A stretch of DNA of 64,000 nucleotides. It comes from Felis catus. Lineage: Eukaryota. The notes under the pieces were generated by a model that worked only from the letters and a program-made list of their open reading frames with translations, was not told the DNA's origin and did not search any database. A program made the position numbers and the translations under genes. Positions 41,891 to 44,074 of this stretch are shown here, one piece after another. The DNA lies in NCBI RefSeq assembly GCF_018350175.1, contig NC_058368.1, forward strand, positions 71,240,001 to 71,304,000. Direction: 5' to 3'. The stretch's first letter is position 1. Each line of letters begins with the position of its first letter.

Positions 41891-42278
41891 CTATGAAGTT
41901 GCCTTAGTTTGCATAGTTGAACTTGGTTCCCACAACATCTGTGTTCCAGGATAAAGGAGAGAACATGGCCAGAATTCAGAGAAATAAGATTGTGTTTAAG
42001 TTGTAGATAATTTGGAAGTTGTATGTTTCACATTCTGGTCCCAGTGACTCAAACTTGTTTTATTCACTGATGTGAGACTCTTAGTCTGAGAAATCTTATT
42101 TCTAGCTGGACAGTCATGTGCCATGAGAGTAGGGGAATGAAGGTTTTTGGGCACAATAGCGATCTGCCATAGTGGTATGATATCTGTAATTTATTTTTAG
42201 TGTTTATTTTCAGAGAGAGAACATGAGCAGGGAGGGACAGAAAGAGTGGGAGAGAGAGAATCCCAAGTAGGCTCCACA

Positions 42279-42808
42279 CAGAAATAGTCCTCAACTTTTT
42301 CCGAATGCCTCAATCTCTACAGTGTCGGCACTCATCCAATTTGCTGGGGTTGTAGATTTCATCTTCTGCATCTCTGCAGCCTTTTCTTTCAGCACAATAT
42401 TTTACAAATTTTTTTTTTAAGTTTTTATTTTTGAGAGAGAGGGACAGAGTGCAAGTGGGGGAAGGGCAGAGAGAGAGGGAGACAGAATCTAAGAGAGAGG
42501 CAGGCTCCAGGCTCTGAGCTGTCCGCACAGAGTGGGACACAGGGCTCATACCCATGAGCTGCAAAATCATTACCTGAGCCGACGTCAGATGCTTAACTGA
42601 CTGAGCCACCCAGGCACCCCCACAAAATCTTTCTGAAAATTCTTTCTGATGTTGACAAAAGCATGTCCTCTCTTGTTCCAATGACAAACACATCTGTTTC
42701 ATACACTGCAGTTCAGGCCCCTTCTGCCTTGGAGTTGGCCAGTTCTTGACACATGGATGCGAGAGCAGATGTGAGGAATGTCACCGCCATCCTGCTTTCT
42801 GAGGACTC
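42279..42808 (-). pseudogene. GTF2I: Processed fragment of GTF2I (TFII-I) N-terminal coding region, about 310 nt, split by a SINE at about 42409-42621
   Basis: Minus strand reads [43 protein letters not shown], then AFVNIRKNFQKDFVKYCAE, then EKAAEMQKMKSTTPANWMSADTVEIEA...VEDYF. Colinear with the GTF2I N-terminus, with a stop, frameshifts and no introns. Confidence 0.9.
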
Positions 42809-44074
42809 AGTGCAGAGCCTGACACAAGGCTAGATGTCCAGAATCGTGAGATCATGATCTGAGCCAAAATCAAGAGTCAGGTGCTTAGCCAACTGAGCCA
42901 CCCAGACACCCCTATCTTATTTTATTTTTGGCAGTCCCTCTATTCAGTCAGATCATGAACTAAGCCAAAGTCAGGCCCTTAACTGACAGAGCCACCCAGG
43001 TGCCCCTTATTTTATTTATTTTTAAATGCTTATTTTTGAGCGAGAGAGCAGGGGAAAGGCAGAGAGCGAGCATGAATGAATGAATGAATGAATCCCAAGC
43101 AGGCTCCTTGTTGTCAGTACAGAGCCAAACTTGGGGCTCGAACTCATGAACTGTGAGATCATGACCTGACTCAAAACCCAGAGTCGGTGCATAACTGGCT
43201 GAGCTACCCAGGCACTCCCAGGGATGTCTTTTAAAAGCATTTACAACTTGCCGTATCTCAGTCAAGACTAAATCTTTTTTTTTTTTTTTAACTTCATTAT
43301 TATTATTATTTTAGAGCATGTGGGGAAAGTGGAGCAGAGAGAGAGAGAATGTTGGGCTCCTTGCTGGGCATGGAGCCTACTTGACTCGGAGCTTGATCTC
43401 ATGACTATGAGATCATGACCTGAGTCAAAATCAAGAGTTGGACCTTAAACCACTAATGTCACCTGAAGACTAAATTTTTAAGTAAATGGATTTTTGTTGA
43501 TGACATTAGTGGTTTAATATATAGCAGTATGGATATTAGAAATGGATGCTTCTTACTGAAATTAGTGCTATTCAAGATATTTGGATTGGCTGAAATATTT
43601 CAGAGACCTTTCACCCTGGCATGGACAAGATATAAAAATCTAGTAGGGCATTTACCTTTAGGGATTCTGCTCTGTTCTTGAATTCCATATTTTTGGTGTC
43701 CCACCATCAGAGAGGAGGATTTCTGGTAGTCTTATAGCAACTGTAAAGATAGGAAAATCTTGCCTTTGGAGTTTAATTATGCATTCCTTGGTGACCCTTT
43801 CATGCAAGATGGTAATCAGATAAGAATTAGGATTTTATTCAGCATGTGGAACAGGTTATATGCTGTCTTGCTGAGAAATGTTTGCTTAATAAATGTATCT
43901 GTTGCAGACTTTGGACTGAGTTGCTTTTATTATAAACTTTAGCAAGATGGGTTAAAGGAGTAGCTGATCCTCACCCAGCTCTTTCTGTTCAACTTTTTGG
44001 TGTTTACCATCCTCTCCAGTAAGAACCTAAGAGTTGTATATGATGACCGAATTGGCTGAAATTTGTTCGTTCAT

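What the first reader, a model, noticed from the sequence alone, without database searches (positions are those of the whole stretch)
42181..42930. Spliced GTF2I mRNA fragment embedded inside a Can-SINE without poly(A) or TSD
Seen: on the minus strand a SINE reads ...caggctctgcactgagt, switches into GTF2I coding sequence (cctcagaaagcaggATGgcggtg...gaggactatttct), then resumes the same SINE at gtgtggagcctacttgggatt. The insert has the SINE's orientation and no A tail or own TSD. An imperfect direct repeat (tatctgtaatttattttt / tatcttattttattttt) brackets the whole composite. Known: ordinary L1-driven retrocopies keep the mRNA 3' end and poly(A), whereas this piece is about codons 15-120 of a long mRNA and appears to cross exon junctions. 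The KAAEMQKMKSTT segment favours GTF2I over GTF2IRD2. Inference: the junctions appear to share short microhomology (gagt; tg), suggesting a double template switch SINE-mRNA-SINE during reverse transcription, or an mRNA-templated patch of a break in an existing SINE. A later SINE then inserted into the GTF2I piece.
Basis: partly seen in the sequence, partly recalled or inferred. Interest (0 to 1): 0.75.

Follow-up and report, generated by a model that had tools for sequence, protein, structure and literature searches.

The report
GTF2I mRNA piece inside SINE hairpin
A 313-base reverse-transcribed scrap of the GTF2I messenger RNA sits at the tip of a hairpin inside an old cat-family jumping element; it is a functionless fossil, and it may record the element's RNA being cut and joined to another RNA while it was being copied into the genome.

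Summary
Codons 15-121 of carnivore GTF2I (313 nt, spliced across two exon junctions, no tail, no own target duplication) interrupt one old Can-SINE in the same orientation. The SINE lost 0-2 nt. A younger SINE inserted later into the piece. The whole lies antisense in a PCCA intron. Junction overlaps are short and ambiguous: 2 or 4 nt, and 1 or 2 nt (GT or G, not 'tg').

The insertion point is the loop of the SINE's strongest hairpin (chance 2-4% for that loop, 16% for any loop). The insert's own two ends base-pair (9 bp, p about 0.002-0.06).

I favour one-step formation on folded RNA during L1-driven SINE copying, by template jumps or ligation at the opened loop (0.5). A later cDNA patch of a break at a DNA hairpin tip is close behind (0.37). 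Divergence cannot separate them, and orthologues and the donor's DNA letters were out of reach.

I found no report of a SINE-mRNA-same-SINE sandwich, nor an earlier scan note of one. It is a single dead locus: a new variant of known chimeras and patches.

The parts
42913..42929 (-). Left copy of the outer SINE's target-site duplication
   Evidence: 16 of 17 bases match 42181-42198; A-rich; 1 of 41 other SINE tails scores as well
42809..42912 (-). 5' half of the outer, old-type Can-SINE (subfamily I-like), ending in the 5' arm of its strongest hairpin (42820-42810)
   Evidence: subfamily label inferred from motifs in PMC4084570
42805..42808 (-). 5' junction overlap: GA (long-loop SINE variant) or GAGT (short-loop variant); donor codons E15-S16
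   Evidence: both SINE variants occur among the 20 old copies in the window
42622..42808 (-). GTF2I piece A, codons 15-77, crossing the exon junction at 42752|42751; one stop codon and a 1-nt deletion
42800..42807 (-). 5' arm of the helix that pairs the insert's two ends
   Evidence: Perfect 8-nt inverted repeat with 42286-42293
42409..42621 (-). Inner, later Can-SINE (subtype IIA-like) with its own A tail; target duplication 42632-42622 / 42414-42404, 9 of 11 alike
42278..42408 (-). GTF2I piece B, codons 76-121, crossing the exon junction at 42396|42395; carries P98, found in all carnivore hits; about 7 nt deleted
42286..42293 (-). 3' arm of the insert's end-to-end helix, followed by an 8-nt unpaired tail
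42278..42279 (-). 3' junction overlap: GT if donor C121 is TGT, otherwise G only
   Evidence: the donor's third codon letter could not be obtained
42185..42279 (-). 3' half of the outer SINE, starting with the 3' hairpin arm (42279-42269), then the CT-rich region and a short A tail
42181..42198 (-). Right copy of the outer target-site duplication

Best explanation
One-step RNA-level chimera made during L1-driven retrotransposition of a Can-SINE. The SINE RNA was opened at the loop of its 11-12 bp hairpin, with the two halves still held by the stem. A broken piece of spliced GTF2I mRNA, whose ends were held together by its own 9-bp helix, was put between the halves. Either L1 reverse transcriptase jumped twice (SINE 3' half to mRNA piece to SINE 5' half), or the RNAs were ligated before copying. 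The product inserted with the SINE's tail and one target duplication, decayed neutrally, and later took a second SINE. Shown: the anatomy, the donor, splicing, the loop position and the end pairing (the last two as predicted folds). Inferred: that the joints formed on RNA, the nick, the enzyme and the timing.
For: Same orientation and return to within 0-2 nt of the same SINE position. The joint is at the loop of the strongest hairpin: -16.8 kcal/mol against -7.5 for the next 30-nt window. The stem pairs in 84% of 203 cells over 17 old copies, against 25-50% when slid. Chance is 2-4% for this loop. The insert's ends pair at -14 kcal/mol, reached by 3 of 1891, 8 of 1830, 30 of 1711 and 94 of 1540 sub-fragments as the end windows widen. 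Insert divergence (12 of 183 to 15 of 189) is not distinguishable from the outer SINE's (9 of 82; p 0.23-0.49). Purified ORF2p does jump between templates (PMC10830420, passages). Double jumps are inferred for tripartite LINE chimeras, with hairpins near the switch sites (PMC2104539, passages). RtcB joins U6 to other RNAs before retrotransposition (PMC6789731, listing only).
Against: No reported case of return to the same SINE template was found. In LTR double-switch retrocopies part of the element is always replaced, and none looked like a continuous element interrupted by an insert, as this one does (PMC5131818, passages). Both structural clues are post hoc; any terminal loop covers 16% of the SINE's bonds. 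The loop is an indel hot spot in genomic copies: 7 of 20 old copies have an indel starting there, though several are probably one inherited variant, and 2 of 20 lack the 3' arm. So DNA-level breaks may cluster there too. With the inner SINE removed, the whole-composite fold did not show the two stacked stems; the present-day composite did show the SINE stem. The insert's point divergence is lower than the SINE's. There is no extra SINE-insert complementarity (16 of 40 shuffles as strong) and no long shared word.
Confidence: 0.5

Rival explanations
1. Later patch. The SINE was already in the chromosome. A break, perhaps at the tip of its DNA hairpin, was repaired by end joining with a reverse-transcribed piece of GTF2I mRNA (class 2 templated sequence insertion / RT-product-mediated repair).
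For: A documented class with this very signature: no tail, no duplication, microdeletion or short microhomology, 73-414 bp in cell lines, spliced cDNAs among the donors (PMC5110952). Internal spliced Pcnt and Inadl fragments were captured at breaks in mouse zygotes (PMC4516963). Mobile elements interrupted by tail-less distant sequence are common in human (PMC2671141). SINEs cover 16% of this window. Indels are almost 2-fold enriched in spacers of short inverted repeats (PMC5737083).
Against: It needs sense orientation by chance (1 in 2) and a break at the loop; rearrangement breakpoints are only very slightly enriched at short inverted repeats. It must also have happened early, before the already old inner SINE arrived (8 of 84 non-CpG sites differ).
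Confidence: 0.37
2. DNA-templated copy, by repair synthesis, from an older processed GTF2I pseudogene elsewhere in the genome.
For: It would explain spliced sequence without any RNA step at this locus. Repair-mediated duplications into mobile elements are common (PMC2671141).
Against: No other GTF2I or GTF2IRD2 piece lies in the 64-kb window, and most such donors lie within 5 kb (824 of 1136). No second contig was laid over piece A, but that test is insensitive.
Confidence: 0.07
3. Tail-less L1 retrocopy, primed internally at a nick inside the SINE, whose target duplication was tiny or has been lost.
For: Tail-less, 5'- and 3'-truncated copies of long RNAs exist in large numbers (PMC5322556).
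Against: No duplication of 8 nt or more, and the site is not A-rich.
Confidence: 0.04
4. Two separate SINEs flanking what is left of an ordinary pseudogene after deletions.
For: The outer duplication is only weakly significant. If the GT at 42806-42805 is SINE sequence, the left half shows a subtype IB mark and the right half a IA mark (my mapping onto).
Against: The halves rejoin within 0-2 nt and restore an 11-bp stem. The GT is required by the donor codons anyway. Two exact deletions would be needed.
Confidence: 0.02

Closest known systems
Class 2 templated sequence insertions / RT-product-mediated DSB repair (Onozawa and Aplan 2016, PMC5110952; Ono et al. 2015, PMC4516963)
   Same: Internal spliced mRNA fragment of about 300 nt from a distant gene, no tail, no target duplication, 0-2 nt lost, short overlaps.
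   Different: Here the site is the loop of a SINE hairpin, the insert is in the SINE's sense and its ends pair; it is ancient and apparently fixed. A pre-existing empty site is not shown.
Tripartite LINE-made chimeric retrogenes (Gogvadze et al. 2007, PMC2104539) and L1 chimeras with U6, Alu or mRNA (PMC4476161, PMC13174262)
   Same: Co-oriented RNA copies inside one target duplication with one A tail; a hairpin at the switch site.
   Different: In the passages read, those join different RNAs in series; none returns to the first template. The mRNA/L1 cases mostly join at splice sites, whereas both joints here are inside exons.
LTR-mediated retrocopies by double template switch (Tan et al. 2016, PMC5131818)
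   Same: Element - partial mRNA - same element sandwich.
   Different: The carrier is a SINE, not an LTR element; nothing of the carrier is replaced; overlaps are 1-4 nt against a median of 6.
Repair-mediated duplications found inside mobile elements (Pace et al. 2009, PMC2671141)
   Same: A mobile element interrupted by unique sequence with end-joining-like joints.
   Different: The donor is spliced and distant, not genomic DNA within 5 kb.
Tail-less retropseudogenes (Noll et al. 2015, PMC5322556)
   Same: 3'-truncated RNA copy without an A tail.
   Different: No 8-35 nt target duplication and no A-rich L1 target site.

Membership tests
Conventional L1 processed pseudogene | Introns removed | tested here: met
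   Runs across two inferred exon borders
Conventional L1 processed pseudogene | mRNA 3' end and poly(A) | tested here: not met
   Ends at codon 121 of a 939-residue isoform, no A tract
Conventional L1 processed pseudogene | Own target-site duplication | tested here: not met
   0 candidates of 8-35 nt at 70% or better
Class 2 templated insertion / RMDR | Donor distant from the site | tested here: met
   No donor in the window; the window lies over 70 Mb into its piece, while cat GTF2I is on a 41.4-Mb record, so another chromosome by inference
Class 2 templated insertion / RMDR | No tail, no duplication; microdeletion or microhomology at the joints | tested here: met
   0-2 nt lost; overlaps of 2-4 and 1-2 nt
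Class 2 templated insertion / RMDR | Inserted into DNA that was already there (empty allele or orthologue) | not testable with these tools
   No genome held; a flank scan of metagenome contigs found nothing
Tripartite LINE chimera | All parts co-oriented inside one target duplication with one tail | tested here: met
   the duplication is A-rich and only weakly significant
Tripartite LINE chimera | Three different RNAs in series | tested here: not met
   The first and third parts are the two halves of one SINE
Tripartite LINE chimera | All parts arrived at the same time | tested here: inconclusive
   Divergences are not distinguishable, but the clock is coarse: the necessarily younger inner SINE looks more diverged than the insert
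LTR-mediated double-switch retrocopy | Flanked by an LTR element with part of it replaced | tested here: not met
   SINE carrier, 0-2 nt lost
LTR-mediated double-switch retrocopy | Microsimilarity beyond chance at both joints | tested here: inconclusive
   Depends on the SINE variant and on a donor codon not obtained; chance of 4 nt or more is 1.6%, of 2 nt or more 16%
Tail-less retropseudogene | 8-35 nt duplication and A-rich L1 target | tested here: not met
   against the criteria
Repair-mediated duplication (proximal) | Genomic donor within 5 kb | tested here: not met
   tblastn of the window finds only the insert; the insert is spliced
Trans-spliced mRNA/retroelement chimera | Joint at a splice site of the mRNA | tested here: not met
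   Joints at codons 15 and 121; inferred exon borders at 33|34, 80 and about 124
Mobile composite SINE (amplified family) | Sibling copies with other flanks | tested here: inconclusive

The most novel reading that the evidence does not exclude
SINE RNAs can be opened at a conserved hairpin loop and take in a stem-closed mRNA fragment, by double template jump or RNA ligation, and still retrotranspose as one unit. This would be a gene-fragment capture route for SINEs, parallel to the one known for LTR elements, and should have left other sense-oriented, loop-centred inserts across carnivore genomes.
Probability: 0.35. Interest if true: 0.72.

Novelty: new variant of a known kind. Interest (0 to 1): 0.47.

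Why it matters
The locus itself is dead and shows no sign of function. Its value is as a fossil of mechanism. If the joints formed on RNA, L1 machinery can return to a broken SINE template after copying an unrelated mRNA piece, which would let SINEs carry gene fragments and would give a route to new composite SINEs. If it is a later patch, it is an ancient germ-line case of RNA-templated repair at a short DNA hairpin. Either way it yields a cheap test: the orientation and position of tail-less mRNA inserts across the many Can-SINE copies in carnivore genomes.

Tried and rejected
No whole genome was held, so there was no search for sibling composites or other GTF2I retrocopies and no orthologue alignment.

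Laying 4 of 24 listed runs at 80% likeness did not bring in donor mRNA reads, and SINE reads swamped the tables. The donor's third-position letters at the joints therefore remain unknown. A small extra depth near 42330-42390 in all four runs may be the real exon; that is untested. RNA depth over the insert was about 0-5 in one raw-read run, with no sign of expression.

Searches that found nothing: the word-index protein search with piece A, PDB sequences, Pfam with the two pieces, metagenome contigs for GTF2I relatives and for the flank.

Tests with no signal: SINE-to-insert RNA complementarity and shared words; covariation in the hairpin (at shuffle level); strand bias of the insert's changes (5 to 1, p 0.22); dating by divergence.

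Rejected: GTF2IRD2 as donor, trans-splicing, proximal DNA duplication, tail-less L1 copy.

The joined insert used for folding was one T short in its middle (312 instead of 313 nt); its ends were unaffected.

Onozawa et al. 2015 was not held. Supplements were not read; the case tables of PMC2671141, PMC2104539 and PMC5131818 could hold similar sandwiches.

Full report
Setting. The window is from a cat-family genome: its young SINEs match motifs given for felid Can-SINEs (against PMC4084570, passages), and one holding RNA run is labelled feline. The finding lies antisense in an intron of about 48 kb of PCCA, whose exons are on the plus strand near 1.2 and 1.3 kb, at 49931-50044 and near 51.85 kb. 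No whole genome was held.

Donor. A search of 1.84 billion representatives with piece A gave 20 hits at E 0.001 or better. The 10 looked up by name are GTF2I or GTF2IRD2 proteins or cluster with them, apart from one unnamed record. With the inner SINE cut out, the insert aligns to cat GTF2I from the first base of E15 (42808) to the last base of C121 (42278). It differs at 15 of 189 code-fixed sites, against 33 of 180 for cat GTF2IRD2B; the score is 359 against 22-32 for 8 shuffles. It has one stop and 8 deleted bases, so 321 donor bases give 313. It carries P98. Of 108 GTF2I hits that align without gaps (120 listed), 22 have P98: all 18 carnivore records and 4 of the vampire bat. The donor was therefore carnivore-lineage mRNA.

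Splicing. An unnamed 67-residue ORF matches GTF2I exactly from C34 to C80 and is unrelated on both sides, as expected when one exon is read through its intron ends; a rabbit record also departs after C80. A mouse study puts the start codon in exon 2 and the Met near 140 in exon 5 (PMC2865459, passages). The insert runs straight across both borders. Its own ends are inside exons, which rules out trans-splicing. Cat GTF2I lies on a 41.4-Mb record, and this window lies more than 70 Mb into its piece, so the donor is on another chromosome by inference. No other piece of it is in the window.

The carrier. The rejoined halves align without a seam to 20 old-type copies. These copies have a long and a short form at exactly this spot. 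In the short form the SINE lost nothing and the 5' overlap is GAGT. In the long form it lost 2 nt and the overlap is GA. The right half's GGGA is a mark of subtype IA, which by my mapping has the long form (the paper's figure was not seen). The 3' overlap is GT or G, depending on a codon letter I could not obtain. No duplication of 8-35 nt flanks the insert, and the site is not A-rich. The outer duplication matches at 16 of 17 bases, but 1 of 41 other tails does as well.

Reality and copy number. Fourteen of 24 listed runs hold 85-93% of the words. Contigs from two DNA-type runs cross the 5' joint with no difference; those at the 3' joint reach only 28-29 letters past it. Depth over the insert (35-38 and 14-16) is like that of the flank (45-46 and 10-13).

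Age. Non-CpG divergence from local majorities is 9 of 82 for the outer SINE and 8 of 84 for the inner. The insert differs at 12 of 183 sites (three likely CpG changes set aside by hand) to 15 of 189. No comparison with the insert is significant (p 0.23-0.64). The inner SINE must be younger than the insert yet looks more diverged, so the clock has no resolution. By the subfamily ages in PMC4084570 (about 45-60 My for subfamily I; 35 My or later for IIA), the event is tens of millions of years old. This is inference.

Two new structural clues, both post hoc. First, the joint is at the 3-nt loop of an 11-bp hairpin, the strongest in the SINE as RNA (-16.8 against -7.5 kcal/mol) and as DNA (-8.2 against -3.2). 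The stem is a family trait: 84% of 203 cells pair in 17 copies, against 25-50% when slid, with no covariation beyond shuffles. That loop holds 2-4% of the SINE's bonds; all terminal loops together hold 16%. Second, the insert's first and last bases pair: 42807-42800 with 42293-42286, 8 Watson-Crick pairs plus one G-U. As strong a duplex is reached by 3 of 1891 to 94 of 1540 sub-fragments and by 3 to 125 of 3000 random window pieces, depending on the end window. Against these clues: the loop is also where genomic copies vary (7 of 20 with an indel there, several probably inherited; 2 of 20 lacking the 3' arm), and the reconstructed composite without the inner SINE did not fold with both stems.

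Mechanism. Both partners were joined where folded single strands hold two ends together, in the same orientation and with almost no loss. That fits a SINE RNA opened in its loop, with L1 reverse transcriptase jumping onto the mRNA piece and back, or with ligation before copying. Template jumping by ORF2p is shown in vitro (PMC10830420, passages). Double jumps are inferred for tripartite chimeras (PMC2104539, passages). RtcB ligation precedes U6/L1 chimeras (PMC6789731, search listing only). I give this 0.5. A later patch gets 0.37. It is a documented class with the same junction signature (PMC5110952, parts 1-3 of 4; PMC4516963, passages; PMC2671141, parts 1-2 of 8 and passages). SINEs are 16% of this window. 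And LTR double-switch products, unlike this one, always replace part of the carrier (PMC5131818, passages). The patch needs the orientation by luck and a break at the loop, where human tumour data show indels almost 2-fold enriched but breakpoints only very slightly (PMC5737083, passages). These odds are my judgement, not a computation.

Novelty. Seven full-text searches aimed at such structures gave no report of this locus or of a SINE - mRNA - same SINE sandwich. The library lacks most subscription papers, and supplements were not read. Also read: PMC13174262 (outline, passages, sections 12 and 18) and passages of PMC4476161, PMC5322556, PMC12065846, PMC2912911 and bioRxiv 2024.12.14.628481. 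Five look-ups of earlier scan notes showed related chimeras but not this one. It works like a template-switch chimera or a cDNA patch. It fails membership of the ordinary, tail-less, LTR-mediated and proximal-duplication classes; class 2 templated insertion remains open.

Verdict. Real, well defined, functionless, mechanism unresolved: a new variant of a known kind, interest 0.47.

Noticed in passing
window 42947-43006 (minus): A 5'-only SINE stub plus about 17 nt of unassigned sequence sits between two copies of the A-rich 13-mer that forms the outer SINE's left target duplication; probably a second insertion at the same cut site, since truncated.
   Followed up: partly
window 1150-1380, 49931-50044, ~51850 (plus): Exons of PCCA; the finding lies in the long intron between them.
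   Followed up: yes
window 33560-33740 (minus) and 20677-20865 (plus): Two old-type SINE copies lack the 3' arm of the same hairpin, starting at its loop. The family's short and long variants, and the younger subfamily's extra bases, also lie at this loop.
   Followed up: partly
window 54778-54921 and 55077-55219 (minus): Two near-identical 3'-truncated old SINE copies 300 nt apart that share private changes; likely a local tandem duplication.
   Followed up: no
window 9799-9923 (minus) and 10423-10453 (plus): A SINE copy with a perfect 12-bp version of the hairpin, and a similar short stretch about 600 nt away.
   Followed up: no
window ~18000-24000: A long, decayed L1 element on the minus strand (L1-like reading frames, recognised from recall).
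   Followed up: no
window 31500-33300: Unique-looking sequence with several frames of 90-110 codons; no Pfam hit.
   Followed up: partly
window 42330-42390: A small extra depth in all four laid runs over the best-preserved part of piece B; possibly the real GTF2I exon.
   Followed up: no
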